DNA of 64,000 bases. Origin: a virus. The stretch is from the IMG/VR virus record IMGVR_UViG_3300023174_000097, positions 39,707-103,706 of that record, one strand, 5' to 3'. Under the pieces are notes generated by a model. That model made no database searches and had not been told where the DNA came from. It worked only from the letters and a program-made list of their open reading frames with translations. Below, one piece after another: positions 30,774 to 48,985 of this stretch. Positions within the stretch are counted from its first letter, which is position 1, and the number at the start of each line of letters is the position of its first letter. The position numbers and the translations under genes were made by a program.

Positions 30774-31769
30774 ATGTCCCTTACCAAACAGCAATTAAAG
30801 CAAATTATTGAAGAGGAGTTTATCAATCTCGTTAACGAAGAAGAGATTGATGAAAAACTATTTGATAAATTAAAAAGCTTTGGTAAGGGGTTGCTTGGAA
30901 AGACAAAAAATTCTCTTTTTGGTCTCCCACAACCTCGTGCAGCCGGTGGTGTTGGAAAATGGTATGCAACATATAAAGAACCTCAACAACCACAAGAACC
31001 AGAACAGCCAGAAAAACAAAAAGCAACAACAGCATTAGATCTGGTTCGTCCAGGATTTGAACATACACCAGATTCTGATATATATGATACAGAATTTAGT
31101 AAAACCGGTCACAGATATAAAGATCAGTCAAGATTGCCAACACGACCTGATTCAAAACAACTAAATCCATATAAAAAACCAGTTGACCCTGTTCCTGCTA
31201 CACGTCAGTTATCATCACCGGATATACAGCAACCTAAAATGCTTAAAAGTCCGGATGAAATAACAACTTCGGCAGAGCATGGTGAAACAGTTACTCCAAG
31301 TGATACAAAGAATGTGGTTGAATTATTAAACAAATATAGAGCAGATTTGAAACCTCTAAATATACCAGAAAGAGAAGTAGATTTAGTTGTTGGATATTTA
31401 ATAGCCAATAATCGTATTCTTGTTAATCCAACAAGAGTTCCAAAAGCACCAGAATCACAAGATGCTGAAGTTTTTCAAGAAATAATTTCACCTTCTTATC
31501 AGCAAGGAGAAATCTCTTTTGATACTTTAGATAATTATATACGGAATTTACGTGATTTTTTTATAAAAGAAAAAAATATTCAAATTCCATTAATTCATAT
31601 TCATGCAATTATGAAATCAATTTACGATGATGGACGCCTTGCAATAAGTCATCAAAAATTAAGAAAAATGGGACAAAAATTTCCAGATATAAAACTAAAA
31701 GAATCCAAATCTTATAAATCGTTTTACAATAATTGGAAAAGGTATACACAAACAGGAGTTAAAATATGA
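30774..31769 (+). CDS. Putative internal head protein
   Basis: MSLTKQQLKQIIEEE tag; Pro/Gln-rich linker. Confidence 0.55.
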   Translation: MSLTKQQLKQIIEEEFINLVNEEEIDEKLFDKLKSFGKGLLGKTKNSLFGLPQPRAAGGVGKWYATYKEPQQPQEPEQPEKQKATTALDLVRPGFEHTPDSDIYDTEFSKTGHRYKDQSRLPTRPDSKQLNPYKKPVDPVPATRQLSSPDIQQPKMLKSPDEITTSAEHGETVTPSDTKNVVELLNKYRADLKPLNIPEREVDLVVGYLIANNRILVNPTRVPKAPESQDAEVFQEIISPSYQQGEISFDTLDNYIRNLRDFFIKEKNIQIPLIHIHAIMKSIYDDGRLAISHQKLRKMGQKFPDIKLKESKSYKSFYNNWKRYTQTGVKI

Positions 31770-32368
31770 ACAAATTTTTATTAAGAGAATATTTTGAACT
31801 CTGTGAAGGCGGTGTCTGTCAAGATTTATTGACAGAATCGGAAAAAGTATTTGTTAAAGGTGGCGGCATGATGCTCACAGGTGTTATGCAAAGAGCAGAT
31901 GCAAAAAATGGCAATGGTCGTGTCTATCCCGAAAACATCCTTCGTCGCGAAGTAGAAAACTATAAGAAACTCGTTACAGAAAACCGTGCTCTTGGAGAAC
32001 TAGATCACCCAGACGAGTCTGTAATCAATTTAAAGAACGCATCTCATATTGTTACAGATATTTGGTGGAATGGAAAAGATGTTATGGGCAAAGTTAAAGT
32101 ATTAACAACTCCATCTGGCCAAATACTTAAATCACTTGTTGAAAGTGGTGTTAAACTTGGCATTTCAAGTCGTGGTCTTGGAAGTGTAAAAGAAAAATCT
32201 GGCCTAACTTATGTGGAAGATGATTTTCAACTTATTTGTTTTGATTTCGTAAGCGAACCATCAACAGTAGGTGCTTTTATGGGCTTAAGTGAAAGTAAAA
32301 AAGCTCCTAATATATTCAACAAATCAGACAAAATAAATCGTCTGTTAAACGATATTATAGGTGATTGA
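31766..32368 (+). CDS. Prohead core protease (T4 gp21-like)
   Basis: NGNGRVYP, ALGELDHP, SHI, GISSRGLGS, DFVSEPS. Confidence 0.95.
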   Translation: MNKFLLREYFELCEGGVCQDLLTESEKVFVKGGGMMLTGVMQRADAKNGNGRVYPENILRREVENYKKLVTENRALGELDHPDESVINLKNASHIVTDIWWNGKDVMGKVKVLTTPSGQILKSLVESGVKLGISSRGLGSVKEKSGLTYVEDDFQLICFDFVSEPSTVGAFMGLSESKKAPNIFNKSDKINRLLNDIIGD

Positions 32369-33446: not shown

Positions 33447-36425
33447 ATGTCAACAAAACAAAAAGGTTTTGCGGTTATCTCTGGTTCTAGCACAGTAGTT
33501 GCTAAAATCATGGAAAACGGCACAGTCGTATTCGGTGATCAAAAACCAGTTAACATGCGTGTTAGTGGTACACTCGTACTTGATCTACAAGGTCAAGCAG
33601 GTGGTACCGGCAAAGTTATCCATGTTGATAGCAATGGTTCAGCATCATTTGCTAAAGTTTCAGCAGCAAATGTTACAACCAGCGATGGTGGTGACGTTCA
33701 AGCAACATTAAACAACTTAAGCAGTAGTTTATCAAGCGAAGCTTCATCACGCGTAAGCAGTGATGCAAGTTTAGTTAGCAAGATCAATAGTGATGTTGCA
33801 AGTTTAATTGATGGTGCTCCAAGTGTTCTTGACACACTCAAAGAACTAGCTAATGCCATTAGTGGTGACGCAAACTTCGTTCAAACCGTATTCAGTCGTG
33901 ATACAAGTTTAGCAACTGCAATTTCAAATGAAGCTTCCGCTCGTGTTGCTGGTGATGCAAGTGTAACCACTGCATTATCAACACAAGTTTCAAGTGAAGC
34001 TTCAAGAGCTACCGCTGCTGAAGGTTCATTAGCTACTGCATTAAGTAATGCAATTTTAAGTGAAGCTTCAAGCCGTGTTGTCGGCGATGCAAGTGTTGCA
34101 ACCGCCTTCTCAACAGCAGTTTCAGCCGAAGCAAGTATTCGCGCTGCAGCAGATGCTTCACTAGCAAGTGATCTAAGTTCAGAAGTAATTGCACGTGCAA
34201 ATGCAGTTAGTTCAGAAGCTTCATTACGTGTTGCTGGCGATGCAAGTGTAACAACAGCACTTACAAGTGCTCTATCAACTGCAGTATCTTCAGAAGCCTC
34301 AAGTCGTGTTGCCGGTGACAATTCACTATCAGCAAGAATTGATGCTATTGACAGTATGCAAACTGTTGATCTTGCTTCAATCGAAACACGTCTTTCAAAC
34401 GAAGAAGTTCGTGCAGATTCAGTTGAATCAGCAATCAGTGCAGATCTAAGTTCTGAAACTGTTCGCGCAGAATCAGCAGAAGCTGTTCTACGCAATGATC
34501 TTAGTGTAGAAGTTGTTGCTCGTGCATTAGGTGATGCAAGCTTAACAACACGTTTATCAGGCGAAGAAGTTCGTGCTGCTTCAGTTGAAGCTGTCCTAAG
34601 TGCAGACCTACGTAGCGAAGCTTCACGCGCCGCTTCAGTAGAAGCTGTACTTGCTGGAAGAATTGATAATGTTCTATCAAACACCGATCCAGCTGCTCTT
34701 GATTCATTAGCAGAAATTGTTAATGCTTTCCAAAGTGCAGATGGTAGTGTTGATGGTGCAATTTCAAGTCTTGCAACTGGCTTAAGTGCAAGTATTTCCT
34801 CAGAAGCTTCACGTGCTGTAGTTGCTGAAGGTAGTCTTGCTACGCTAATCAGTGCAGAACAATCACGCGCTGAAAGTGTTGAAGCAGTATTAACTGCTGC
34901 TGATAGCACAGAAACTGCACGTGCTCAAAGTGCAGAAGCTAGCTTAGATAGTAAAGTATCAACTGAAACTGCCCGCGCACAATCAGCTGAAAACTCACTA
35001 GCAAGTGCCTTCTCAACAGCTGATGTTTCATTATCAACAAAAATTGACAATGAAGCTTCAATCCGTGCTGCTGCCGATGCTTCATTAGCAAGTAAGATTG
35101 CTGCTGATGTATCAACAGAAGCTGCTGCTCGTGCTTCAGCCGACGCATCATTAGCTTCAGACCTTTCTGATGAAGTTGCTGCACGCGAAGCTGCTGTTTC
35201 AACAGAAGCCTCATTACGTGTTGTTGGCGATGCAAGTGTTGCTGCTGACCTAAGTAGTGAAATTGTTGCACGTGCAAGTGCAATTGATAATGAAGCAAGC
35301 ATTCGTGCTGCTGCTGATGACAGTCTAGAAGCCGCACTTTCAACAGAAATTGTTGATCGCGCTGCTGCTGTCTCAACAGAAGCTTCATTACGCGTTGTCG
35401 GTGACGAAAGCGTTGCAGTTGCTCTAAGTAGTGAAATTGTTGCACGTGCAAGTGCAATTAGCAGCGAATCATCAAGTCGCGTTGCTGGTGATAATTCATT
35501 AGCAAGTGCAATTGCTACAGAAAAAGGCAGAATTGACGCAATACTCAGTGGTTCCACTGCTGATCTAGATCAATTTGCTGAAGTTGTTGCTTATGTTAGT
35601 AGTTTAGATACAACACAAGCTGGTGTAATTATCAGTAGTGTTGCTTCTCTAAACGCAAGTGCATCAACAGAAGCTAGTACACGTTCCGCAGCTGATACAA
35701 GCTTAACAAGCCGCCTATCAACTGAAGAAGTTGCACGTGCTTCAGCAGATACTTCATTAGCAAGTGCTCTTTCAAGTGAAACTTCAAGAGCAACTGCAGC
35801 CGAAGGCTCACTAGCAACTGCTGTTTCAGCAGAAGCAAGTAGCCGCACTTCAGCAGATGGTAGCCTAACAAGCCGTCTATCAACTGAAGAAGGTCGTGCT
35901 GTTGCAGCTGAAGGTTCATTAGCAACTGCTGTTTCAGCAGAAGCTAGCGCACGTTCAAGTGCTGATGCAAGTCTAGCAAGTGCTCTTTCAAGTGAAGCAA
36001 GTGTTCGTCTCGCTGGCGATAACTCACTTGATGCACGTGTTGATACATTAGAAAGTGTCCTAATCATAGGTGCTGCTAATGAAATTGACATTAATGGTGG
36101 TGTAGGCGCTGTTGGTCTAAGTGGTACAATTACAATCGGTCTTCCAGACAACGTTACCGTTGCTGGCAACCTAACTGTAAATGGTAATGCTACACTCGGC
36201 GACAGTTCAGCTGATCAAGTAACAGTAAACGGTAAGTTCCAAGCTCCTAAGTTTACTGCTGCAACAATCCCAGCTGCATACCTAAGTGGCAATCAATCAG
36301 CACACAATGGACACATGTTCTACCTTGATGCTGCAAATGATGCAGTAGCTGCATTCCCACAAGGCCAGAAATGGTACTTCTGTGAAGGTGGCGAATGGTT
36401 CGCAAGTCCATTCTACGGCGTCTGA
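33447..36425 (+). CDS. Long Ala/Ser-rich coiled-coil fibre (~990 aa)
   Basis: ATG 33447 after AGGAG; many S[ST]EAS.R...D.SL repeats; three LD[TSQ][LF].E[LIV] hinge motifs. Confidence 0.8.
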   Translation: MSTKQKGFAVISGSSTVVAKIMENGTVVFGDQKPVNMRVSGTLVLDLQGQAGGTGKVIHVDSNGSASFAKVSAANVTTSDGGDVQATLNNLSSSLSSEASSRVSSDASLVSKINSDVASLIDGAPSVLDTLKELANAISGDANFVQTVFSRDTSLATAISNEASARVAGDASVTTALSTQVSSEASRATAAEGSLATALSNAILSEASSRVVGDASVATAFSTAVSAEASIRAAADASLASDLSSEVIARANAVSSEASLRVAGDASVTTALTSALSTAVSSEASSRVAGDNSLSARIDAIDSMQTVDLASIETRLSNEEVRADSVESAISADLSSETVRAESAEAVLRNDLSVEVVARALGDASLTTRLSGEEVRAASVEAVLSADLRSEASRAASVEAVLAGRIDNVLSNTDPAALDSLAEIVNAFQSADGSVDGAISSLATGLSASISSEASRAVVAEGSLATLISAEQSRAESVEAVLTAADSTETARAQSAEASLDSKVSTETARAQSAENSLASAFSTADVSLSTKIDNEASIRAAADASLASKIAADVSTEAAARASADASLASDLSDEVAAREAAVSTEASLRVVGDASVAADLSSEIVARASAIDNEASIRAAADDSLEAALSTEIVDRAAAVSTEASLRVVGDESVAVALSSEIVARASAISSESSSRVAGDNSLASAIATEKGRIDAILSGSTADLDQFAEVVAYVSSLDTTQAGVIISSVASLNASASTEASTRSAADTSLTSRLSTEEVARASADTSLASALSSETSRATAAEGSLATAVSAEASSRTSADGSLTSRLSTEEGRAVAAEGSLATAVSAEASARSSADASLASALSSEASVRLAGDNSLDARVDTLESVLIIGAANEIDINGGVGAVGLSGTITIGLPDNVTVAGNLTVNGNATLGDSSADQVTVNGKFQAPKFTAATIPAAYLSGNQSAHNGHMFYLDAANDAVAAFPQGQKWYFCEGGEWFASPFYGV
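33700..36050 (+). repeat. Degenerate coding repeat array of 18-aa and 11-aa units
   Basis: For example SSEASSRVAGDNSL, STEASLRVVGDASV, SSEIVARASAI. Confidence 0.8.
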
Positions 36426-36549: not shown

Positions 36550-37101
36550 ATGATCAAAGGCTTAAGCGTAGTCAATGGAACAACGCACATCCACAAATTA
36601 TTGAATAATGGTGTTGCAAGTTTCAGTGGCTCTGTTCAGATAACTGGAACATTATTACCTGAAGGTGATGCTGTAAGAACAATAGGTTCTTCAGAAAATA
36701 GATGGGCAGACGTATACGCACAACAAACAACAGTTGGTGCTATATTTGAAACAGGTTTTACTACTAAAGGTATAGGAGAATATCCTACTGGAACAGTTGT
36801 TGTGTGGGAATCTGGTAAAATCACACCTTGTACAGTCAAAGAAGATAATAGGGTTGTTGGCGCTATATTAAATGGTAAAGATCAACCAATAATATTAGGT
36901 GCTGAATATGTTTTAGTTACCGGTAAAATCAAAGAAGGTGATTGGATAGTTACAAGCGATAAAATTGGTCATGGTTGTGCTGCTGAAACCAAGAGTAAAT
37001 TGGGCTTTAAAAGAGATTTATTTGGTAAAGTAATAGGTCAAGCTCTTGAAGATTCAGACGGAGACAGCAATTTAATTAAATGTTTTATTAAGAAGCTATA
37101 G
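36550..37101 (+). CDS. Fibre-associated protein with a peptidase G2/IMC-like chaperone domain
   Basis: YPTGTVVV...VVGAI...LG...VTGKIKEGDWIVTS...G...VIGQALE; N-terminus resembles that of the long fibre. Confidence 0.55.
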   Translation: MIKGLSVVNGTTHIHKLLNNGVASFSGSVQITGTLLPEGDAVRTIGSSENRWADVYAQQTTVGAIFETGFTTKGIGEYPTGTVVVWESGKITPCTVKEDNRVVGAILNGKDQPIILGAEYVLVTGKIKEGDWIVTSDKIGHGCAAETKSKLGFKRDLFGKVIGQALEDSDGDSNLIKCFIKKL

Positions 37102-37178: not shown

Positions 37179-38498
37179 ATGAGTGGTTCAAAATTATTAG
37201 AACAAGCAATAGTAGATGCACAAGCATTACGAGATTCAGCGTATAAAAGCGCACAAGCTGCACTCGTTGAAAAATTCGCTCCACAGATAAAAGAAGCAGT
37301 AGAAAAACTTCTAGAACAAGGTCCAGAAGAAAATCCTGCTGGTATGACTGGTTCACCAGAAGATACTTTAGCCGCTGATATTCCAGCAGGCACTGATTTT
37401 GGCGGCGCTCCACCTGATGCAAGTGATAAAAGCTTTGTGGCAGGTGCTGCAAAAGATATACCACTTGCCGCAACAGATGGTGAAAAGCTCTGCGCTTGTC
37501 CAGATAACGATAAAGAAATTACATTAAATATAGATCTTGGCGCTTTATCTGATGAATTAAAAATTGGCAAAGAAGATGAAGAAGAAGAACCTGGAATGCA
37601 ACCACAATCTACTGGTATGATGAACCAGCCTTCTGCTGCTGGTGGTGCCGGTGGTCCTGCTCCGGTAATGGAATCACTAGAAATAGATGAAGATTTATTG
37701 CAAGAAGAAGGTGAGCCAGATTCTAATATACACGATGAATCAATGCAACAAGTTGATGAAGAATTAACAGAAGTTAATCTTGATGAAATTTTATCAGAAT
37801 CAGAAGAAATTGAAGATGACGAAGAATCAGAAGATGAAGAAGAAACCGAAGAAGACGAAGAATCGGAAGAAGACGATGAAGATGAAGAAGATTTAGACGA
37901 AGCAAAGAAAAAGAAACCAAAATCAGATCTTGGTTCCCTATCAGTTAAAAAAGGGATTGATAAAAACGAAAAAGTCACACAGGCTGATATTTTAGCTGCC
38001 CGTGGTGTTAAATTAAAAAAACAAACAAACGAATCAAAAGAAGTTCAACAAACAAAAGAACTTATTAAAGCATCATCTGCTCTCCTTAAAGAAGTTGAGA
38101 ACAAAGATGCTAAAATCAACAAACTCTTGGAAGAGAATAAAAAGTTCTCATCCACAGTAGAAGAAATGTCATTAGCATTTAAGAAACTTGAAGAAGTTAA
38201 TACATTAAATGCGCGTCTCTTCTACGAAAATCAGGTCTTGAAAAGCGCCTCCTTGAATGAGCGACAAAAAACACATATTGTCGAAGCTATTTCAAAGGCT
38301 GATTCCGTCAGTGAAGCAAAAACAGTATATGAAACATTAATCAATTCAGTGGGTGGTCCTGCAAAAGAAGAACGTTCACCAAAATCACTGAGTGAAGCGA
38401 TTAATAAAAAGTCATCATTTAGATTGCCTCACAAACAAACAGAACAGCCAAACGATTCAAATAAAGATCGTTGGTTAAAATTAGCCGGTATCAAATGA
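37179..38498 (+). CDS. Prohead scaffold/core protein (T4 gp22-like position)
   Basis: Directly upstream of MCP; very acidic centre, coiled-coil C-terminus, many LxE sites, ends RWLKLAGIK. Confidence 0.8.
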   Translation: MSGSKLLEQAIVDAQALRDSAYKSAQAALVEKFAPQIKEAVEKLLEQGPEENPAGMTGSPEDTLAADIPAGTDFGGAPPDASDKSFVAGAAKDIPLAATDGEKLCACPDNDKEITLNIDLGALSDELKIGKEDEEEEPGMQPQSTGMMNQPSAAGGAGGPAPVMESLEIDEDLLQEEGEPDSNIHDESMQQVDEELTEVNLDEILSESEEIEDDEESEDEEETEEDEESEEDDEDEEDLDEAKKKKPKSDLGSLSVKKGIDKNEKVTQADILAARGVKLKKQTNESKEVQQTKELIKASSALLKEVENKDAKINKLLEENKKFSSTVEEMSLAFKKLEEVNTLNARLFYENQVLKSASLNERQKTHIVEAISKADSVSEAKTVYETLINSVGGPAKEERSPKSLSEAINKKSSFRLPHKQTEQPNDSNKDRWLKLAGIK

Positions 38499-40288: not shown

Positions 40289-40459
40289 ATGCAAGCAATC
40301 TATCAAATACGAAACAAAATAAATAATAAAATTTATATTGGAAGTACAAACAATATTAATAAACACTGGAATAATCATAAAAGTAAATTAAATAATAAGA
40401 TACACGAAAATTCATATTTACAAGCAATTATAGAATATAAATCTTGGAAACATATTTGA
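40289..40459 (+). pseudogene. Internally deleted GIY-YIG homing endonuclease remnant (56 aa; not in ORF track)
   Basis: MQAIYQIRNKINNKIYIGSTNNINKHWNNHKSKLNNKIHENSYLQA-IIEYKSWKHI*; both ends match those of 17147..17953. Confidence 0.85.
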
Positions 40460-40554: not shown

Positions 40555-41853
40555 ATGTTTTTTTATAGTGAACCAAGTGGAATTGTTATTGTACCAATAA
40601 CACTTTTAGCCAATACTTCAAGTCTTTATTTAACTGATGCTTGCGTTGGAACAAGTAGTCAGATAACTTTTACAGTAAGTTCTAGTGGTAATACTACTGA
40701 GACTGTTTATTTGAACGATGATTCAAATCAATTTAGTTTCTCTCCATCAAGTTTTGGTATGACAGGAAGCGTTACTTCTCAAGTTGTAACAGTTACATTT
40801 ACACCTACTAAACCTTGGGGTTTGAAGAGTGGAAATTTAACATTAAGTTCAAGCGGTGGAAATTTGTTAACTCTTGCCATGAGTGGTAATGCAGTTGCGG
40901 TTCCTCTGATATTGACTTCAAGTGTTAGTTCAATAACATTTACAAATACAATTGTTAATGCCACTTCTTCACAAACCTTTACTGTTTCAGCGGGTGGATT
41001 TTCAAGCGTTGAAGAAACAGTTACAGTTAGTGATAATTCAAGTCAATTTGACTTCTCGCCATCTTCATTTAGTTTAACCGGTAGTGGGCAATCACAAACT
41101 GTTACTGCCAAATTTATACCAACAAGCACAGGAGTAAAAACTGCTAATCTAACTCTCAGTTCTTCTGGCGGAAATACAAAAATTGTTACTTTGAATGGCA
41201 CATCTTTAGAACAATATTTTAATAATGTATCTTTATTATTAAAAGGTGACGGAACAAATGGTAGTACAAACATTATTGATAGTAGTAATAATAATTTTTC
41301 CGTAACAGCATCTGGAAATGCTGCAATAAGTACAGCACAAAGTAAATATGGTGGTTCAAGCTTGTATTTTGATGGAATTGGCGATTATTTAGATATTGCT
41401 TCATCAAATAGCTCTGCCTTTGTATTTGGAACAAATAATTTTACAGTTGAATTTTGGATAAAGTCAAGTTCATCAAACGGAAATCTACTAAATCCAGCTT
41501 CTTTGTCTGGTGGTGGATTTTGGGGTGTTATAATACAAAATTCAAATTTAAGATGGAATAATTCGTATAATTCAACAAATTTGTGGGCAATAGGATGTAG
41601 TAGTATTTTAGATAATAATTGGCATCATGTTGCTATAAGTAGAAATTCTGGTACTGTTAAAGTTTATTTTGATGGAGTATTACAAAATACTTTCATTGAT
41701 ACAACAAATTATACTTATTTTAATGGCTCTAGTGATGGTCTTAGAATTGGCAAAGGAAATTTAGCAGATTTTAATGGTTATATTGATGATTTACGAATAA
41801 CAAAAGGTGTTGGTAGATATACAACAAACTTTACACCACCAACTGCATTATAA
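40555..41853 (+). CDS. Capsid decoration-like protein: 2 ASH/Ig domains plus a ConA/LamG domain
   Basis: Two ~100-aa Ig repeats (DDSNQF.FSPSSF); NNVSLLLKGDG, SLYFDG.GDY, FTVEFW, WHHVA, GYIDDLRITKG. Confidence 0.75.
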   Translation: MFFYSEPSGIVIVPITLLANTSSLYLTDACVGTSSQITFTVSSSGNTTETVYLNDDSNQFSFSPSSFGMTGSVTSQVVTVTFTPTKPWGLKSGNLTLSSSGGNLLTLAMSGNAVAVPLILTSSVSSITFTNTIVNATSSQTFTVSAGGFSSVEETVTVSDNSSQFDFSPSSFSLTGSGQSQTVTAKFIPTSTGVKTANLTLSSSGGNTKIVTLNGTSLEQYFNNVSLLLKGDGTNGSTNIIDSSNNNFSVTASGNAAISTAQSKYGGSSLYFDGIGDYLDIASSNSSAFVFGTNNFTVEFWIKSSSSNGNLLNPASLSGGGFWGVIIQNSNLRWNNSYNSTNLWAIGCSSILDNNWHHVAISRNSGTVKVYFDGVLQNTFIDTTNYTYFNGSSDGLRIGKGNLADFNGYIDDLRITKGVGRYTTNFTPPTAL

Positions 41854-41952: not shown

Positions 41953-43269
41953 ATGGCCGTACCTGTTCTCACGCCGAAACAACAAACAAGTGCAATCATA
42001 TTGCCTCCAACCGGGGCATTTGTTAATGTAACTGGTAATTTACCTATTGGCGTATATGCTAATAGCGTCGACTTTGTAAGCGGCGCCGTAGATCAAGTTG
42101 CTTACACTTATAAAATGATAGGTGGCGATGTTCTTGATATAGAAATTACAGAAGGTCAAGTTTATGCGGCATATGAAGATGCTGTTTTAACATATGGTTA
42201 TTTAGTCAATCTTCATCAAGCGAAGAATTCACTTGGTAACATGTTGGGTGCTCCAACCGGCACGTTCAATAGTGATGGTGAAATAAAGAGTGGAAGCGCT
42301 CTTTACAATCTTGTTAGTTCTTCTGGTCCATTAAATCTCACTTATCCAATGTATGATATAACTGCTATTACAGACATAGCAGACGCATTCTCTCATCAAG
42401 CCGGTGTAGGTGGAAAAGTTGATATTTATTCTGCTTCTTTTCAAGGAATAGATATGAGACAAGATTACGATTTACAAGAAATAGTAAATAATCTCGCTAA
42501 TGATGTTAGTTCTTCTCTTTATGGAAAAATAACCGCAGGCTCAAGAATAACAGTTCGCAAGGTTTATTATAAGTCAGCACGTGCGATGTGGAGATTCTAT
42601 GGCTACTACGGTGGTTTAAATGCAGTAGGTAATCTTTCAACATACGGTCAGTATGCTGACGACAGTACATTTGAAGTCATTCCAGCGTGGCACAATAAAC
42701 TTCAAGCTATGGCTTATGAAGATAATATCTATACGCGTATATCACATTATTCATATGAAATCAAGAATAATAAATTAAGACTATATCCAATGCCTGACGC
42801 AACAGATATTCACACCTATTGGTTTGAATTTAGTGTAGGTGAAGGTAACGGAGCAAATGTTGGAATAGGAATTATTTCAGGTTCATCTTATACCGAAGCA
42901 TCTGGTAAGGATCCAAGAATCGGAGGAGTCAACAACATTAACACTCTTCCTTTCTCAAACATTCCATTTGAAAATATTAATGCTATTGGTAAGCATTGGA
43001 TTCGCCGTTACGCTCTAGCTGTCGCAAAAGGTATGCTTGCAGAAGTTCGTTCAAAGTTTCAAACAATACCAATCCCAGGTGAAAGTGTTACTTTAAATGG
43101 TGCTGATTTAAGAGCACAAAGTAAAGAAGAAAAAGATGGTCTTAAAGATGAACTGTTGAAGATACTTGAAGAAACAGATTATAACACACTAGCAGAAAAG
43201 AGAACTGCTCTCTCAGATAATGCAAACAAAATACTTGCTGCAGTTCCAAACGTAATATTCGTAGGTTAG
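41953..43269 (+). CDS. Neck/head-tail adaptor (T4 gp13-like)
   Basis: GGDVLDIEIT, WIRRYALAVAKGMLAEVRSKF..IP.PG..VTLNG. Confidence 0.85.
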   Translation: MAVPVLTPKQQTSAIILPPTGAFVNVTGNLPIGVYANSVDFVSGAVDQVAYTYKMIGGDVLDIEITEGQVYAAYEDAVLTYGYLVNLHQAKNSLGNMLGAPTGTFNSDGEIKSGSALYNLVSSSGPLNLTYPMYDITAITDIADAFSHQAGVGGKVDIYSASFQGIDMRQDYDLQEIVNNLANDVSSSLYGKITAGSRITVRKVYYKSARAMWRFYGYYGGLNAVGNLSTYGQYADDSTFEVIPAWHNKLQAMAYEDNIYTRISHYSYEIKNNKLRLYPMPDATDIHTYWFEFSVGEGNGANVGIGIISGSSYTEASGKDPRIGGVNNINTLPFSNIPFENINAIGKHWIRRYALAVAKGMLAEVRSKFQTIPIPGESVTLNGADLRAQSKEEKDGLKDELLKILEETDYNTLAEKRTALSDNANKILAAVPNVIFVG

Positions 43270-43319: not shown

Positions 43320-44162
43320 ATGGTAATATGTGAAATTTGTAAAAATTGTTTCAAATCAATAATGGGTCATTTAAGAAAACATAATATTAAAGCAAAAGAA
43401 TATAAAATTTTGTATCCTAATGCTCTTTTTATGGACGATGAACAAAAAAAAATAATATCAAATAAAACTAAAAACGCCATCAATCAACCCAAAACAAAAG
43501 AAAAATATTTGGAATCAAGAAAAAAAATTGATTATTCTAAATTTAATTTTAAATATGACCGTGAAAATAAAGATATAAAGAAAAAAATGTATTCACAAGA
43601 AAGAAATAAAAAGATCTCAGAAGCAAGAAAAAAATATTGGGAAGATAAAAAAGGAAAAACAGTAGAACAACTATATGGAGAAGAAACCGGAAAGGCGATA
43701 AGAGAGATAAAAAGTCGTCAAAACTCCGGAGTGAACAATCCAGCATATGGAAAAATATACAATAATGCAGGTAGAGTTAGGGGATATTATAAAGGATATT
43801 TTTTTAGAAGTTTGTGGGAATGTTCTTTTTTAAAATTTTTAGAAGAAAATGGCACACATTTAAAAGATGTTGATTATGAAAAAATAAATATATCTTATAC
43901 AAAAGATGGAGGCGGAAGAACTTATACGCCTGATTATTATTTACCAAAAGAAAAAAAACTAATTGAAATAAAATCTAAATGGAATCTCCAAAGAGATGCC
44001 GAAGATATAAGTCTGAAAAGAAAAGCCGCAGAAAAATGGTGCAAAGAAAATGATAGTACTTATCAAATATTAACTGAAGATGATTTTCCTATTTTAAAAT
44101 TAAATCAAATAAAAAATGATAAAAATATTATTTTATTAAAAAATGGCAATATAAATGGGTAA
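43320..44162 (+). CDS. TnsA-like PD-(D/E)XK endonuclease with an N-terminal Zn finger; probable homing endonuclease
   Basis: CEIC...HLRKH finger; FRSLWE, YTPDY, LIEIKS; very AT/Lys-rich; own late motif. Confidence 0.75.
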   Translation: MVICEICKNCFKSIMGHLRKHNIKAKEYKILYPNALFMDDEQKKIISNKTKNAINQPKTKEKYLESRKKIDYSKFNFKYDRENKDIKKKMYSQERNKKISEARKKYWEDKKGKTVEQLYGEETGKAIREIKSRQNSGVNNPAYGKIYNNAGRVRGYYKGYFFRSLWECSFLKFLEENGTHLKDVDYEKINISYTKDGGGRTYTPDYYLPKEKKLIEIKSKWNLQRDAEDISLKRKAAEKWCKENDSTYQILTEDDFPILKLNQIKNDKNIILLKNGNING

Positions 44163-44958
44163 AAAGAAAGTAGATCAAAAAAAATGGACTCAACCAGAAC
44201 AACCTCCTCCTCCAATGTTTTTGGGGAAGAAAGAGAGAGATCTAACCAAGCAAGTAAATGATGAACTTATTGAAAGAGTAATAGGACAAACTATTATTTA
44301 TTTTCCTCTTAATGTAAAAAATAGTGATTTTCATGCATTATACGGAGAAGCAATAAATAAGCAGTTTTTGAGACCAATATTAATAAAAGCTTTAGTTAAA
44401 ATTGATGAAGATCAAACGTCAACTGAAGTGTATGGACTTGACAAGACATCAAAATTAACAATTAATTTTCACAAAAGAAGATTAACAGAAGATCAAGATT
44501 TATATGTTAGAGAAGGTGATATAGTTTTTTATGGAACAACGTTCTATGAAATAGTAAAATTATCACAGCCAAGAGCACTATTCGGTCAAGTTGAGCATCG
44601 TGTAGAAATAACAGCAATATGTGTTCGTGTTAGAGAAGGTTTTTTCAATGAGCCGGTCGCGTTACTACAAATAAGAGAAAAATATCGTACAACACAACAA
44701 AGTATTATTGATATAATAAACAGTACGCCAGTAGAAGGTGCTTGTGGCGGTAAAATAAAATTAGTGTCGGGTAGAAGGACAAGTTCTCAGCGTTCTCAAT
44801 TTTTAGATTATGTAAATAATCCACAAGATTATGAAGGATGTATTATCTATTTGACGGAAATTGATCCAGACGAAACATATGGAGAATTTGATCAAGCAGA
44901 CAAATTTTATTTTAATGAAGATGGAATATGGTACGTCAGTCAGTTCTTTGTTATATAG
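44155..44958 (+). CDS. Neck/head-closure protein (T4 gp14-like) with a C-terminal extension
   Basis: ELIERVIGQTIIYF, LYGE, VREGDIV; the extra ~70 aa match the fibre C-terminus. Confidence 0.8.
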   Translation: MGKKKVDQKKWTQPEQPPPPMFLGKKERDLTKQVNDELIERVIGQTIIYFPLNVKNSDFHALYGEAINKQFLRPILIKALVKIDEDQTSTEVYGLDKTSKLTINFHKRRLTEDQDLYVREGDIVFYGTTFYEIVKLSQPRALFGQVEHRVEITAICVRVREGFFNEPVALLQIREKYRTTQQSIIDIINSTPVEGACGGKIKLVSGRRTSSQRSQFLDYVNNPQDYEGCIIYLTEIDPDETYGEFDQADKFYFNEDGIWYVSQFFVI

Positions 44959-44966
44959 GTAATTTT

Positions 44967-45206
44967 ATGAATTCTATTACATATGAAAAATTTATACATT
45001 TATCCGGTAAAAGAACAAGTACTCAAAGAAGCATGTTTTTGGACATGGTCAATAATCCACATAACTATAAAGGTTATATTGTATATTTAAAAGAACTAGA
45101 TGAAGACGAAATATATTCACCTTTTGATCACGCTAAAACATTCTATATGAATGAAGGTGGTCATTGGCAGTCTGCAGATTTCCACAATCAAGTGTTTGAA
45201 GAATAG
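44967..45206 (+). CDS. Stand-alone copy of the gp14 C-terminal extension domain
   Basis: SGKRTSTQRSMFLDMVNNP...FYMNEGGHW versus SGRRTSSQRSQFLDYVNNP...FYFNEDGIW; ATG 44967. Confidence 0.75.
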   Translation: MNSITYEKFIHLSGKRTSTQRSMFLDMVNNPHNYKGYIVYLKELDEDEIYSPFDHAKTFYMNEGGHWQSADFHNQVFEE

Positions 45207-45217
45207 GAATTATAAAT

Positions 45218-46075
45218 ATGCCAAATGATAAAACAGAATTTGAAAGAACGGGGCTTGAAAAAAATCAAGTCTCTATAGAGCCTTCAACTATAGAAACAAT
45301 AGACTTAGCAATATATAATTGGCTTGATAAAACCATGAATATATCTTCAAACACTAACCGTGGATGGAAAAAAACCCCAGTTGTTTGGGTTGCTGCTGAA
45401 AGAGCGCATCAAATAAAATTTGATAGAACACTTAGAGATGTAAATGGTAATTTTATTTTACCGGTAATAACACTTCAAAGAGATAATATAACAAAAAATT
45501 TAACAAAAAAAGGCACATTTTATGCAAATGTACCACCAGATGACTTTCGTGGTGGCGTTGTAACTGTCACAAAACTTGTTTCACAAGAAAAATCAAATAA
45601 TTATGCAAAAAATAATAATAATAGAAAATTTTTGCAATATAATGTTAAAGAAAAAAATGAAAAAGTAATTTATGAAGTTACAAAAATACCATTACCAACT
45701 TATATTGATGTAAAATACACAATAACAGTTAATGCTGAATATCAACAACAGATGAATCAAATAATACAACCATTTATGACTTATACTGCTGGTATTAATC
45801 ATTTTATGGTTTCTCAAGAAGAGCATAAATACGAATGTTTTTTTGAAAAAGATTCTTCTTTTAAAAATGGTGGTAATACGGGAAAACTTGAAGAACAAAA
45901 TCGTTTATTTACAACTGAATTTTCGGTTAATGTACTTGGATATTTACTTGGTGCTGGGGCAAATTCTGAAAAACCAAAAATAATTACTTCTGAAACAATA
46001 GTAGAAATAAAAATACCAAAAGAAAAAGAAATGTTTGGCGAGACAACAGAAGCAGACAAAAAGAAATATTATTAA
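45218..46075 (+). CDS. Tail terminator/sheath stabiliser (T4 gp15-like)
   Basis: PVVWVAAER, LPVITL.R, P.YIDVKY.I, QMNQIIQ; lies before the sheath. Confidence 0.75.
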   Translation: MPNDKTEFERTGLEKNQVSIEPSTIETIDLAIYNWLDKTMNISSNTNRGWKKTPVVWVAAERAHQIKFDRTLRDVNGNFILPVITLQRDNITKNLTKKGTFYANVPPDDFRGGVVTVTKLVSQEKSNNYAKNNNNRKFLQYNVKEKNEKVIYEVTKIPLPTYIDVKYTITVNAEYQQQMNQIIQPFMTYTAGINHFMVSQEEHKYECFFEKDSSFKNGGNTGKLEEQNRLFTTEFSVNVLGYLLGAGANSEKPKIITSETIVEIKIPKEKEMFGETTEADKKKYY

Positions 46076-46150: not shown

Positions 46151-48985
46151 ATGAGTGGTGCAAATAAGTATCGTTTCGTTTCCCCCGGAATTCAAATTAA
46201 AGAAATTGATCGTTCACAGGTCAATAATACAAATGACGCTGTAGGACCAGTTATAATTGGTCGTGCAAGAAGAGGACCAGGTATGGTTCCTGTCAAAGTG
46301 CGTTCATATGAAGAATTTGTATCAGTATTCGGCGAACCTGTTCGTGGTTCAACAGATGGTGATATTTGGCGTGAAGGAAACTTAACCGGTCCTGCGTATG
46401 CATCATGGGCTGCTAAAGCTTATTTGGCTAATTCAAGTCCATTAACCTTCGTTCGTTTGATGGGTTCTAAACACCCAGAAGCTGGTTTAAGTGGATATCC
46501 AGGTTGGAAAACAACAAATACAATAACAACTTCAACAGCCAGTAATGGTGGCGCTTATGGTCTTTTCGTTGTTCCATCAAGTTCAGTTGCACAAGTTACC
46601 GGTGCATTAGCTGCAATATTTTATATTGACAGTAGTGCCAGTTTAGCTCTTGCTGGCCAGAATCCATCCGGAACTATGGTTACTGCATCTGCCGCTCTTG
46701 TTAAGTCTGTTGGAAATAGTTTTGAATTTAGAATGAAAGTACTTGATGCGTCATCAAACACGATACTTGATACATCATTTAATTTTGATAAAACATCAGA
46801 CAAATATATTCGTAAAATATTCAATACCAATCCAACTCTTGTAAACAATAGTATAACATCTATTGATAATAGAGAAAAATATTGGCTTGGCGAAACATTT
46901 ACAGATTTCTTAAATGATAATGTTACCGGTTCAGCACAGGGTAAAGCATATGCATTTATCGCAGGCTTAAAGAATACCGATGTTGATTTATCAGATTTTG
47001 AATTAGAAGCGCAGCCAGCAAAGACAGGTTGGATTTTCTCTCAAGATCTCAGCACAGTTACTGGCTCATACAATCCACAGAATATGTCTAAACTCTTTAG
47101 ACTTGTCGCTCTTGGTGGTGAAGGTGCCGGTGATTGGAATCAGCGTTCAATAAAAGTTGCAATAAAAGATGTTAAATACTCACCAACCACATTTGAAAAA
47201 TATGGTTCATTTACAGTTGAAGTACGTTCAACTTCCGATAACGACGCACAGCCAAGTGTTCTTGAAGTATTTACAAACTGCAATCTAAATCCAAATTCGG
47301 AAAATTATGTTGCCAAGAGAATTGGCGATAAATATCTTGAATGGACAGACAACACCGCTACCGGTGAAAAGAGACACAGAGTATTTGGAAACTACGATAA
47401 TATCTCTAAATACGTTCGCGTAGAAATGAATTCATTAGTTGAAGAAGGTGGTATTGATGCAGAATGCTTACCATTCGGATTTTTGGGACCGGTAAAATAC
47501 AAAACTGTTACTTTTAGTTCTGGTTCAGCAACAACTGGTGCACCAATATTAAAAGCAATCGGAGAAATACCACTTGCTCCAGCTGGAACATCAAACACAA
47601 TTGATGTAACCGGTATAAGTGATATAACTGCATCAATTAAATTCCCAGAAGTAAAACTAAGAGTATCAAGCTCACAAGCCGGCGTATTAAACGATAGAGA
47701 TACTTATTATGGTGTTGTTACCAATGTTGGTACAAGAGCACAATTTAATGAAGAATATGTTGACCTTGTAAGAGTTAAACCATATAATCTTGATACTTTC
47801 GTTCCAACCGGCTCACTAACAGAATATTCAACAATATTCACATTAGATGATGTCAAAGAAGTTTCAAGTGCAATAGGTACATTCTTTTGGGAGAGTGGAA
47901 GTCGTGTTGCAGGCCAGTCAATAACAGCTGCCAGTTCTTCTTATAAGAGCTTATTAGATAAAGGTGTTGATAAATTCGTTGTACCAATGTTTGGTGGTTT
48001 TGATGGTCTAAACGTTAAAGAAAAAGAACCATTTGCTAACCGTGTTCTTGGTTCAAATAAAGATCCAAGAGCCAACAGCGCACTATACAGTGTTCAAAAA
48101 GCAATTGACATGGTTTCAGATCCAGAAGTTGTTGAAATGAATCTATTAACTGTTCCAGGTATAACAAATACAGCTGTAACGGACAAGGTTCTTGATATAG
48201 CTAAACAAAGAAACGATACACTCGCAATAATTGACATTGAAGGTGGCTATATACCAACTACTGAAGAAGCAACTCCAGAACGCAGTAGAATGGGTAATGT
48301 AAACACAGCAGTAGCAACTATCAAATCAAGAAACTTAAACAATAGTTTTGGTTGTGCTTACTATCCATGGGTTTCAATTAGTGCCGATAACAATATTCCA
48401 CTATGGGTCCCACCATCAGTTGTAGCTCTTGGTACAATGGCTTCTTCACAAGAAGCAACCGCTGTATGGTTTGCGCCAGCAGGATTTAATCGTGGTGGAT
48501 TGAGTAATGGTTCATCAGGCTTAACTGTTCTTGATGTTCGTGAAAGATTATCACTTAAACAGCGCGATGCTTTATATGAAGTAAACATTAACCCAATTGC
48601 TTCATTCCCAAGTGAAGGTATCGTAATCTTCGGACAGAAGACTCTACAAGCAACTTCAAGTGCTCTTGACCGTATAAACGTTCGTCGTCTTGCGATCTAT
48701 CTCAAGGATAAGATTTCTAAGATTTCAAGAGGCATCCTATTTGATCCAAACTTACAAGTTACTTGGGATCGCTTTGTTTCACAAGTTAATCCATTAATGG
48801 CTGATACAAAGGCAAGATTTGGTTTAAGTGAATATAAAGTTGTACTTGATAGTACAACAACTACACCAGATTTGATTGATCGCAATATTATGTACGCTAA
48901 AGTTTATATTAAGCCAGCACGTGCAATTGAATTTATCGCAATTGACTTTATCATAACAAATACCGGTGCAAGTTTTGACGAATGA
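46151..48985 (+). CDS. Tail sheath protein (T4 gp18-like)
   Basis: FVSPGIQIKEID, YYPW, WFAPAGFNRG, INPI, GQKTLQ, LDRINVRRL, IKPARAIEFI. Confidence 0.97.
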   Translation: MSGANKYRFVSPGIQIKEIDRSQVNNTNDAVGPVIIGRARRGPGMVPVKVRSYEEFVSVFGEPVRGSTDGDIWREGNLTGPAYASWAAKAYLANSSPLTFVRLMGSKHPEAGLSGYPGWKTTNTITTSTASNGGAYGLFVVPSSSVAQVTGALAAIFYIDSSASLALAGQNPSGTMVTASAALVKSVGNSFEFRMKVLDASSNTILDTSFNFDKTSDKYIRKIFNTNPTLVNNSITSIDNREKYWLGETFTDFLNDNVTGSAQGKAYAFIAGLKNTDVDLSDFELEAQPAKTGWIFSQDLSTVTGSYNPQNMSKLFRLVALGGEGAGDWNQRSIKVAIKDVKYSPTTFEKYGSFTVEVRSTSDNDAQPSVLEVFTNCNLNPNSENYVAKRIGDKYLEWTDNTATGEKRHRVFGNYDNISKYVRVEMNSLVEEGGIDAECLPFGFLGPVKYKTVTFSSGSATTGAPILKAIGEIPLAPAGTSNTIDVTGISDITASIKFPEVKLRVSSSQAGVLNDRDTYYGVVTNVGTRAQFNEEYVDLVRVKPYNLDTFVPTGSLTEYSTIFTLDDVKEVSSAIGTFFWESGSRVAGQSITAASSSYKSLLDKGVDKFVVPMFGGFDGLNVKEKEPFANRVLGSNKDPRANSALYSVQKAIDMVSDPEVVEMNLLTVPGITNTAVTDKVLDIAKQRNDTLAIIDIEGGYIPTTEEATPERSRMGNVNTAVATIKSRNLNNSFGCAYYPWVSISADNNIPLWVPPSVVALGTMASSQEATAVWFAPAGFNRGGLSNGSSGLTVLDVRERLSLKQRDALYEVNINPIASFPSEGIVIFGQKTLQATSSALDRINVRRLAIYLKDKISKISRGILFDPNLQVTWDRFVSQVNPLMADTKARFGLSEYKVVLDSTTTTPDLIDRNIMYAKVYIKPARAIEFIAIDFIITNTGASFDE

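What the first reader, a model, noticed from the sequence alone, without database searches (positions are those of the whole stretch)
44750..45206. One small domain sits at the tip of the long fibre, on the neck protein and as a free protein: candidate fibre-docking system
Seen: the fibre 33447..36425 ends NQSAHNGHMFYLD..AFPQGQKWYFCEGGEWFASPF. The gp14-like neck protein has a C-terminal extension NPQDYEGCIIYLT..EFDQADKFYFNEDGIWYVSQF. The next gene (44967..45206) is only this domain (NPHNYKGYIVYLK..PFDHAKTFYMNEGGHWQSADF). The shared pattern is N..xxGxx[FIV]YL...F.[QH]..[KT][WF]Y[FM][NC]E[GD]G.W. Inference: the copies co-oligomerise so that a long whisker/collar fibre is attached to the neck by its C-terminus, with the free copy acting as a plug or adaptor. 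I do not know of this attachment mode being described.
Basis: partly seen in the sequence, partly recalled or inferred. Interest (0 to 1): 0.8.

Follow-up and report, generated by a model that had tools for sequence, protein, structure and literature searches.

The report
Shared small domain on neck and fibre
An uncultured marine T4-like phage carries the same small, previously undescribed protein domain on its neck protein, as a free mini-protein next to it and at the end of a long fibre; the three copies are real relatives, but whether they join the fibre to the neck is untested.

Summary
The window has three homologous copies of a 45-62-residue domain ("DOM"). They lie at the C-terminus of the gp14-type neck protein, in a conserved free 79-aa protein directly downstream, and at the C-terminus of a 992-aa helical fibre.

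DOM matches nothing in Pfam, PHROGs or PDB sequences. I found it in none of 50,697 GenBank phage records or 185,579 prokaryote genomes. It is common in uncultured relatives of this far-T4 myovirus.

The neck copy takes several forms there: fused to gp14, tandem, split off as a small gene, or at the end of gp14-fused fibres of 615-1260 aa. Every DOM-bearing fibre whose N-terminus was seen also has a conserved N-terminal motif. In fibres, DOM can be C-terminal, internal or right after that motif.

Fibre copies never occur without a neck copy. A tree test shows this could reflect a single ancestral event, so it is weak evidence for contact.

My best reading (0.4) is a self-associating, foldon-like oligomerisation module, with the free protein a detached second subunit of the neck pair. 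Docking of the fibre to the neck through DOM (about 0.28) is not excluded. The conserved N-terminal motif and the distal position of DOM on gp14-fused fibres count against attachment by the C-terminus. The complex predictor was closed, so binding was never tested.

The parts
33447..36425 (+). 992-aa fibre lying between the prohead protease (31766-32368) and the scaffold (37179-38498). It is an Ala/Ser-rich helical shaft with an 18-residue repeat.
   Evidence: ORF. Weak tail-fibre PHROG hits. 20% Ala, 18% Ser, one Pro in residues 126-899, periodicity 4.5/3.6/9 = harmonics of 18. Length varies from 504 to 1104 aa in the complete genes of close relatives.
33447..33656 (+). N-terminal motif (NT) of the fibre, 'MSTKQKGFAVISGSS...'. 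All DOM-bearing fibres with a visible N-terminus share it.
   Evidence: The NT HMM hits the window fibre at E 3.4e-15. All strong NT hits are DOM proteins. More divergent forms of the same motif were read by eye in L147 and L136 fibres.
36288..36419 (+). DOM copy at the fibre C-terminus. This is the short form of about 45 aa, without the first strand and most of the helix.
   Evidence: Leave-out HMM E 9.8e-12. BLASTP to the gp14 C-terminus E 4e-6.
36550..37101 (+). 183-aa ORF that follows the fibre gene. Its start (MIKGLSVVNG) is NT-like. Role unknown.
   Evidence: ORF. The fibre end lies about 710-730 bp before the scaffold gene in many relatives, which leaves room for this gene. A weak NT hit on the 186-aa ORF at that position in L011.
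41953..43269 (+). gp13-type neck adaptor.
   Evidence: T4 gp13 chains 9mkb_A6 and 9lu4_D, E 1.5e-4. PHROG head-tail adaptor Ad2.
43320..44162 (+). Endonuclease-like gene inserted between gp13 and gp14. It is not part of the system.
   Evidence: TnsA-like and endonuclease I Pfam hits. Most relatives have gp13 directly followed by gp14.
44155..44649 (+). gp14-type neck (head-closure) core, aa 1-165.
   Evidence: Foldseek to T4 portal-neck chains (E 3e-5). Core-only homologues of about 164 aa end here.
44650..44742 (+). Linker between the gp14 core and DOM, with two short helices.
   Evidence: AF2 model helices at residues 168-180 and 184-190.
44743..44952 (+). DOM copy fused to gp14 (aa 197-266). 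Full form: strand, helix, then three strands.
   Evidence: pLDDT about 90. Strands 202-206, 230-236, 250-255 and 258-261; helices 213-226. HMM E 1e-38.
44967..45206 (+). Free 79-aa protein: a 12-aa leader plus the full DOM (about 44982-45191).
   Evidence: 57% identical to the gp14 DOM. 21 conserved clusters. dN/dS about 0.2. AF2 pLDDT 78.6 with the same secondary structure as the gp14 DOM.
45218..46075 (+). Protein at the gp15 (tail terminator) position. Named by gene order only.
   Evidence: It lies between gp14 and the sheath 46151-48985. No family or PDB sequence hit.

Best explanation
DOM is a small self-associating module that works like a larger version of the fibritin foldon. On the fibre it would be the C-terminal nucleus that brings the chains of the helical shaft together and into register, while the conserved N-terminal motif (NT) would anchor the fibre to the virion. 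On the neck, the six gp14-linked DOMs and the free 79-aa DOM proteins would assemble with each other into small DOM oligomers around the gp14 ring, forming a minimal, covalently anchored whisker stub. The free protein would be a detached second subunit of that unit, not a plug for the fibre. Shown here: homology of the three copies, gp14 identity by fold, conservation of the free gene, and the range of architectures in relatives. Inferred: self-association, the oligomeric state, and NT as the anchor.
For: (1) Fused, tandem and split forms argue for DOM-DOM contact at the neck. These are gp14-DOM plus free DOM (the window, L004-L006, L092, L093, L100, L154), gp14-DOM-DOM in one chain (P0208, P0257), tandem DOM-DOM at the end of double-core gp14 fibres, and a 478-aa protein between gp14 and gp15. 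The DOM tree places the window-clade free copy as a recent duplicate of its own gp14 copy, and the tandem pair of the other clade as a separate, older duplication. A pair of neck DOMs therefore arose at least twice.
(2) DOM caps fibrous proteins. It sits at the extreme C-terminus of most of the 127 profile hits, which range from 255 to 1314 aa. That includes gp14-fused fibres, where it lies distal to the ring.
(3) DOM also occurs internally (P0045, P0089) and directly after NT, ahead of long adhesin-like regions (P0049, P0066 and others). This fits a clamp that can sit anywhere along a trimer. There is a precedent: JS98-type fibritins have two foldon motifs separated by a coiled-coil spacer, and the T4 foldon starts trimerisation (PMC3797505).
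(4) NT is conserved at the N-terminus of every DOM fibre whose N-terminus was seen, and strong NT hits never lack DOM. Minimal proteins of 132-156 aa are just NT plus DOM. That is the pattern expected of an anchor plus an oligomeriser.
(5) Weak structural hints point the same way. The three best VIA matches of the DOM model are collagen XVIII and XV trimerisation domains or a construct listed beside them (Z 4.1, 3.6, 3.3; 50-56 residues aligned). The DOM HMM's best alignment on T4 fibritin falls exactly on the foldon hairpin.
Against: No oligomer was predicted or measured. The structural matches are below any safe threshold (Z about 4, rmsd about 5 A; Foldseek found nothing at E <= 1e-3). The foldon alignment scores only 4.1 bits. 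The same hairpin motif also resembles choline-binding repeats (multi-stretch hits), so it may be a generic aromatic hairpin. A trimerising module on a hexameric ring with no fibre between ring and DOM has no obvious purpose. The reading does not predict why DOM fibres are found only where the neck has DOM.
Confidence: 0.4

Rival explanations
1. Docking platform. The neck-side DOMs (gp14-fused plus free or tandem copies) would form the site where the NT/DOM fibres are hung. Contact would be through mixed DOM-DOM oligomers, so that the fibre C-terminus sits at the neck, or through NT binding the neck DOMs.
For: Among loci where both regions can be read, a fibre DOM upstream of the scaffold gene always comes with a neck-module DOM (15 of 15). 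Two further cases have a giant gp14 that runs off the locus end. Twenty loci with core-only gp14 have neither. Five large core-only records of 71-131 kb have no DOM at all. The complete record G001 has exactly one neck and one fibre copy, and the complete record G011 has a tandem neck pair plus three fibre copies. The neck copy is kept next to gp15 through at least five different architectures. Fusion and split variants show that DOMs are likely to contact each other. When DOM lies next to NT at the N-terminal end of adhesin-like proteins, it is in the position of a particle-binding module.
Against: The co-occurrence is not phylogenetically independent. The AU test does not reject one clade for all DOM-bearing gp14 cores (p 0.54), and only one independent pair lies on supported branches. 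Eight loci have a neck DOM but no fibre DOM at the usual place. In relatives the neck DOM lies at the end of 450-1000 aa of fibre sequence fused to gp14, far from the ring. Solved neck fibres attach by N-terminal domains to the gp13-type adaptor, not to gp14 (PMC12929629, PMC10966104). Fibre-type and neck-type DOMs are old, separate lineages with no sign of within-genome matching. A trimeric fibre tip and single gp14 DOMs give no simple stoichiometry.
Confidence: 0.28
2. DOM is a small ligand-binding tip module, for example a lectin-like binder of host surface polysaccharide. It would be displayed at the distal ends of fibres and on the neck, with tandem copies adding avidity.
For: DOM is aromatic-rich and mostly terminal on fibrous proteins, and sometimes tandem. 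The last hairpin resembles choline-binding repeats: two of 23 members hit such families, below threshold, and repeat proteins matched 7-10 times on profile positions 48-63. Other virion proteins nearby carry lectin-type domains, such as Laminin_G_3 at 40555-41853.
Against: A free 79-aa copy with no anchor is hard to explain. DOM placed right after NT and ahead of long adhesin-like regions is at the wrong end for a receptor-binding tip. It is strongly conserved across phages whose fibres differ widely, whereas receptor-binding tips usually vary. No lectin fold was found.
Confidence: 0.12

Closest known systems
T4 fibritin (gpwac) and its C-terminal foldon, including JS98-type fibritins with two foldon motifs
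   Same: A long segmented helical fibre with a conserved N-terminal end and a small C-terminal beta-hairpin domain. The hairpin pattern aromatic-Y-x-x-x-x-G-x-W-x-x-S-x-F is shared. Tandem copies exist in JS98-type fibritins. The foldon both starts trimerisation and contacts another fibre (PMC3797505).
   Different: DOM is 45-62 aa, with an extra strand, a helix and a further strand. Similarity to the foldon is not significant (4.1 bits). The fibre gene lies between the prohead protease and the scaffold, not beside gp13. DOM is also fused to gp14 and encoded as a free protein, and I found no report of that for the foldon.
T4 gp14 neck protein (head closure Hc2), PDB 9mkb and 9lu4-9lu7
   Same: The fold of residues 1-165 (Foldseek E 3e-5) and the position after gp13 and before the sheath.
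   Different: In T4 the gp14 C-terminal region binds the gp15 hexamer (PMC12929629). Here the C-terminal 100 aa are a linker plus DOM, which many relatives lack (core-only gp14 of about 164 aa). No significant sequence similarity.
Neck fibres of Anabaena myophage A-1(L) (gp82-gp81-gp80) and the T4 collar and whiskers
   Same: Accessory fibres carried at the neck of a myovirus and built from several gene products joined end to end.
   Different: Those fibres attach through N-terminal domains to the gp13-type adaptor or the gp5 pentadecamer (PMC10966104, PMC12929629). No domain is shared between neck protein and fibre.
Collagen XV/XVIII (multiplexin) trimerisation domains, PDB 3n3f and 9bnb
   Same: Small alpha/beta units of about 55 residues. 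They are the best structural matches of the DOM model and cover nearly the whole target.
   Different: Z is only 3.6-4.1 at rmsd about 5 A. These are animal proteins with no sequence relation to DOM. At most this is an analogy.

Membership tests
T4 gp14-type neck / head-closure protein | Fold of the core domain | tested here: met
   AF2 model (pLDDT 75.8). The top Foldseek PDB hits are T4 portal-neck chains 9mkb_0, 9lu7_M and 9lu5_M (E 3e-5 to 1e-4, prob 1.0), followed by neck or stopper proteins of many phages.
T4 gp14-type neck / head-closure protein | Gene order gp13 - gp14 - gp15 - sheath | tested here: met
   gp13 by PDB sequence match and sheath by PHROG. The same order is seen in about 150 related loci. 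The gp15 position is named by order only.
T4 gp14-type neck / head-closure protein | Sequence or profile similarity to T4 gp14 | tested here: inconclusive
   hhalign of alignment A3 against T4 gp14: E 0.1, a co-linear 99-column alignment. No Pfam or PHROG hit.
T4 gp14-type neck / head-closure protein | Hexameric ring between the gp13 dodecamer and gp15 | not testable with these tools
   Needs a virion structure.
Fibritin foldon | Sequence similarity to the 27-30-aa foldon | tested here: inconclusive
   The DOM HMM's best alignment on T4 fibritin lies on the foldon hairpin, but scores only 4.1 bits. A DOM profile search of PDB sequences, which include many foldon fusions, found none.
Fibritin foldon | C-terminal position on a segmented helical fibre | tested here: met
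   The fibre ends in DOM. The shaft has an 18-residue repeat and almost no Pro. The helical nature is inferred from sequence alone.
Fibritin foldon | Size and architecture: a single beta-hairpin plus an extended N-terminal segment | tested here: not met
   DOM has four strands and a helix over about 62 aa. I therefore do not file it as a foldon.
Fibritin foldon | Forms trimers on its own | not testable with these tools
Fibritin (gpwac) proper | Conserved 50-aa N-terminal neck-binding domain and a locus next to gene 13 | tested here: not met
   The gene lies between the prohead protease and the scaffold. The N-terminal motif NT is a different, clade-specific sequence. Similarity of NT to the T4 fibritin N-terminus was not tested.
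Multiplexin collagen trimerisation domain fold | Structural superposition | tested here: inconclusive
   VIA Z 4.1 (56 of 57 residues, rmsd 5.3 A) and Z 3.6 (50 of 53 residues). Foldseek E 1.3.
Choline-binding / cell-wall-binding repeats | Pfam match above threshold and tandem arrays of the hairpin | tested here: not met
   One of 23 members hits Choline_bind_4 at E 0.006 and one hits Choline_bind_1 at E 0.22. DOM occurs once or twice per protein, not in arrays.

The most novel reading that the evidence does not exclude
The gp14 ring, through its own DOMs and the free or tandem extra copies, offers incomplete DOM oligomers that are completed by the DOMs of separately encoded fibres. A family of accessory fibres would then be hung on the neck by homotypic domain completion. 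No solved phage neck shows this attachment mode, which could be used to display payloads on the neck.
Probability: 0.25. Interest if true: 0.8.

Novelty: new variant of a known kind. Interest (0 to 1): 0.55.

Why it matters
DOM is an uncatalogued domain family that marks the neck and accessory fibres of a large group of marine far-T4 myoviruses. That group is abundant in metagenomes: more than 4,600 gp14 relatives were found. No close gp14 relative was found among sequenced isolates, and no isolate carries DOM. If DOM self-associates, it would be a second, independent small oligomerisation unit of the foldon kind, which is useful as a protein-engineering tag. It would also explain how these phages build fibres of very different length from the same two end modules. 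If DOM docks fibres to gp14, it would be a new way of attaching neck fibres. It would also add a function for the gp14 ring beyond closing the head. Either way, the family gives a handle for annotating neck and fibre genes in thousands of uncultured phage contigs.

Tried and rejected
- Complex prediction. I had planned fibre C-terminus x3 plus the gp14 DOM. No binding test of any kind was run.
- The look-up of encoding contigs. I used the search for related loci instead.

Searches that found nothing:
- Pfam and PHROGs for gp14, the free protein and the DOM alignment.
- PDB sequence searches with gp14 and with the DOM profile.
- ESM Atlas gave no usable hit.
- Foldseek against PDB with the DOM model gave nothing at E <= 1e-3.
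- tblastn of DOM against GenBank phages found nothing at E <= 1.
- The scan of prokaryote genomes found no relatives.
- Earlier notes of this scan held nothing on this domain.

Ideas considered and rejected:
- Recoding that joins gp14 to the free copy (stop read-through or frameshift). In L004, L005, L006, L092 and L093 the free ORF follows the gp14 stop in frame. In the window, L100, L154 and L020 the frame relation differs. The window gene has its own ATG 8 nt after the stop, preceded by AGG. This is a separate gene.
- Co-occurrence as strong evidence for contact. A FastTree suggested three separate DOM clades. The AU test does not reject one clade (p 0.54), and only one independent pair lies on supported branches.
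- A fibre folded back from the baseplate so that its tip reaches the neck. Fibre length varies from 504 to 1104 aa among close relatives with the same neck genes, which does not fit a fixed tail length.
- DOM as a beta-propeller blade that closes a ring with other copies. No propeller appeared in the fold searches, and the model has a helix between strands 1 and 2.

Full report
**What the window is.** The window is part of a 103.7-kb IMG/VR viral record estimated at 57% complete. It has about 30-35% G+C and all genes lie on one strand. The major capsid protein is closest to Flavobacterium phage vB_FspM_immuto (48%), Microcystis phage Mel-JY01 (47%) and Rhodothermus phage RM378 (41%). That places the phage among the far-T4 myoviruses.

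The gene order around the finding is as follows:

- prohead protease (31766-32368) and small ORFs
- a 992-aa fibre (33447-36425) and a 183-aa ORF
- scaffold and major capsid protein
- an Ig/Laminin_G protein
- gp13 (41953-43269)
- an endonuclease-like insert (43320-44162)
- gp14-like (44155-44958)
- a 79-aa ORF (44967-45206)
- a protein at the gp15 position, then sheath and tube

The gp14 C-terminus and the free ORF are 57% identical over 61 residues (E 3e-24). The fibre C-terminus matches the gp14 C-terminus at 30% over 46 residues (E 4e-6).

Three hand-picked motifs can mislead, so I ran an independent test. I built an HMM from 116 neck-type sequences, none from the window or from any fibre. 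It finds the fibre C-terminus at E 9.8e-12 among all 487 six-frame ORFs of the window, and nothing else.

The free ORF is a genuine gene. It is conserved at about 79 aa in 21 protein clusters and is under purifying selection (dN/dS about 0.2 at dS above 1.2).

The gp14 assignment rests on fold and gene order:

- Fold: the AF2 model's best PDB hits are T4 portal-neck chains at E 3e-5.
- Sequence profiles are inconclusive.

In the model the core is residues 1-165. Two short helices follow, and residues 197-266 form a confident (pLDDT about 90) strand-helix-strand-strand-strand domain. I call this domain DOM. The free protein folds the same way.

**DOM is an uncatalogued family.** It matches nothing in Pfam, PHROGs or PDB sequences. 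tblastn finds it in none of 50,697 GenBank phage records. A scan of 185,579 prokaryote genomes found no relative.

A profile search of 1.8 billion representative proteins finds 127 clusters at E <= 1e-3. In these hits DOM occurs in three settings:

- mostly at the extreme C-terminus of proteins of 255 to 1314 aa
- in small proteins of 59-156 aa
- at residues 75-130 of large proteins that continue with Ig-like, cadherin-like and calcium-binding repeats

**The neck copy takes many forms in relatives.** gp14 relatives are very numerous, with 4,643 hits. I examined about 150 related viral contigs and found these architectures:

- core-only gp14 of about 164 aa with no DOM anywhere nearby
- gp14-linker-DOM of about 264 aa, the commonest DOM form
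- gp14-DOM followed by a free DOM gene (the window clade)
- gp14-DOM-DOM in one chain (P0208, P0257)
- chains with two gp14 cores, then fibre-like repeats, then one or two DOMs (615-1260 aa)
- giant gp14 proteins of up to about 2480 aa (several cut by the locus end) followed by a 478-aa protein that ends in DOM-DOM, just before gp15

A tree of DOM sequences shows two separate duplications. The window-clade free copy is a recent duplicate of its own gp14 copy. The tandem pair of the other clade is an older, separate duplication. A pair of DOMs at the neck therefore arose at least twice. It exists both fused and split, which is the classic sign that the two copies touch.

**The fibre copy belongs to a family with two conserved ends.** Every DOM-bearing fibre whose N-terminus I could see starts with the same motif, roughly M-x-x-K-K-G-[IL]-A-V-[IV]-S-G-S...F..D-G. 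I call this motif NT. Strong NT hits always also carry DOM.

What lies between or after the two modules varies:

- nothing (mini proteins of 132-156 aa)
- a helical shaft of about 350 to about 950 aa in close relatives
- about 300 aa before DOM and a long tail after it (P0045, P0089)
- DOM directly after NT, followed by long adhesin-like regions

The window's shaft is 20% Ala and 18% Ser. It has one proline in residues 126-899 and an 18-residue repeat. This resembles the segmented coiled coil of fibritin, but the resemblance is inferred from sequence only.

**Does the fibre dock on the neck through DOM?** The best argument for docking is co-occurrence. Among loci where both places can be read:

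- 15 have both a neck DOM and a DOM fibre upstream of the scaffold gene
- 8 have only the neck DOM
- 20 have neither
- none clearly has a fibre DOM without a neck DOM; the two apparent cases have a giant gp14 that runs off the locus

Whole-record searches agree. Two complete records have neck plus fibre copies, and five large core-only records have none.

This pattern may reflect a single ancestral event. A quick tree suggested three DOM clades. The AU test does not reject one clade for all DOM-bearing gp14 cores (p 0.54), and only one independent contrast sits on supported branches. The co-occurrence is therefore compatible with docking but does not demonstrate it.

Several observations argue against attachment by the C-terminus specifically:

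- The conserved NT end is the natural candidate for the anchor. Both neck fibres with a solved attachment site (T4 fibritin and A-1(L) gp82) bind by N-terminal domains to the gp13-type adaptor (PMC12929629, PMC10966104).
- DOM can sit in the middle of a fibre.
- In the gp14-fused fibres DOM is the distal end, hundreds of residues from the ring.
- Fibre-type and neck-type DOMs are old, separate lineages with no within-genome matching.

**What DOM most likely does.** My best reading is a self-associating oligomerisation unit that works like a larger foldon. Its position at the end of helical and beta-repeat fibres fits this. So does its occasional use as an internal or N-proximal clamp, and the tandem, split and fused variants. 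There is also a precedent: JS98-type fibritins have two foldon motifs, and the T4 foldon both starts trimerisation and contacts the long tail fibre (PMC3797505).

The structural hints are weak but point the same way. The three top VIA matches are collagen XVIII and XV trimerisation domains or a construct listed beside them (Z 4.1-3.3). The DOM HMM's best alignment on T4 fibritin falls on the foldon hairpin, at only 4.1 bits. I do not file DOM as a foldon, because its size and architecture differ.

On this reading the gp14 DOMs and the free protein form small oligomers around the ring. The free protein is a detached subunit, not a plug. The purpose of such a stub on a hexameric ring remains unexplained. 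That gap is why I put this reading at only 0.4 and keep the docking platform at about 0.28. A ligand-binding tip module is a third possibility at 0.12.

**Limits.** No physical or predicted interaction was tested, because the complex predictor was closed. The record is incomplete, so more DOM proteins may exist in this phage. The gp15 assignment and the helical nature of the shaft are inferences.

**Verdict.** This is a real and well-delimited new domain family with an unusual distribution: neck protein, free protein and fibres. The fibre-to-neck docking by the C-terminus is untested and, on comparative grounds, less likely than a foldon-like role.

Noticed in passing
L139:7813-9657, L145:1263-3113, L164:5840-8566, L063:5851-12468 (related loci): In one clade the neck protein has two gp14 cores in tandem in a single chain (residues about 1-165 and about 215-375). 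Fibre-like repeats follow (motifs SASxFYGDGSNLTG and TAEWDGSHTGNA), giving chains of up to about 2480 aa. A double-core chain suggests a ring built from three chains or two stacked rings. L020 has two separate gp14-core genes in tandem.
   Followed up: partly
window 43320-44162: A 280-aa endonuclease-like gene (TnsA-like / phage endonuclease I PD-(D/E)XK) sits between gp13 and gp14. In most relatives gp14 starts about 10 nt after gp13, so this looks like a mobile insertion specific to this phage.
   Followed up: partly
window 40289-40459: A 56-aa ORF just after the capsid gene reads like the N-terminal half of a GIY-YIG endonuclease (IYIGST...). It is probably a truncated homing-endonuclease remnant.
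   Followed up: no
window 36550-37101: A 183-aa ORF follows the fibre gene. A gene-sized gap of about 720 bp lies at this place in many relatives. Its start (MIKGLSVVNG...) resembles the fibres' N-terminal motif, and it has a 'SSENRWADVY' motif seen in tail-fibre proteins. It could be a small second fibre or a fibre assembly factor.
   Followed up: partly
window 40555-41853: A 432-aa protein between the capsid gene and gp13 has Ig-like (ASH/HYDIN-type) repeats and a Laminin_G_3 / ConA-like lectin domain. It may be a capsid or neck decoration with sugar-binding potential.
   Followed up: no
window 44743-44952 and gp14 relatives (alignment A3): The gp14-type DOM has two nearly invariant cysteines: C197 before the first strand and C229 in 'GCIIYL'. 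The free copy lacks both, and fibre-type DOMs have a different conserved Cys in 'WYFCE'. This may point to disulfides in the virion.
   Followed up: no
gp14 family as a whole: More than 4,600 gp14 relatives exist in metagenomes. tblastn against 50,697 GenBank phage records finds only two distant hits (Mel-JY01 and an uncultured megaphage). This abundant marine myovirus group therefore has almost no sequenced isolates.
   Followed up: partly
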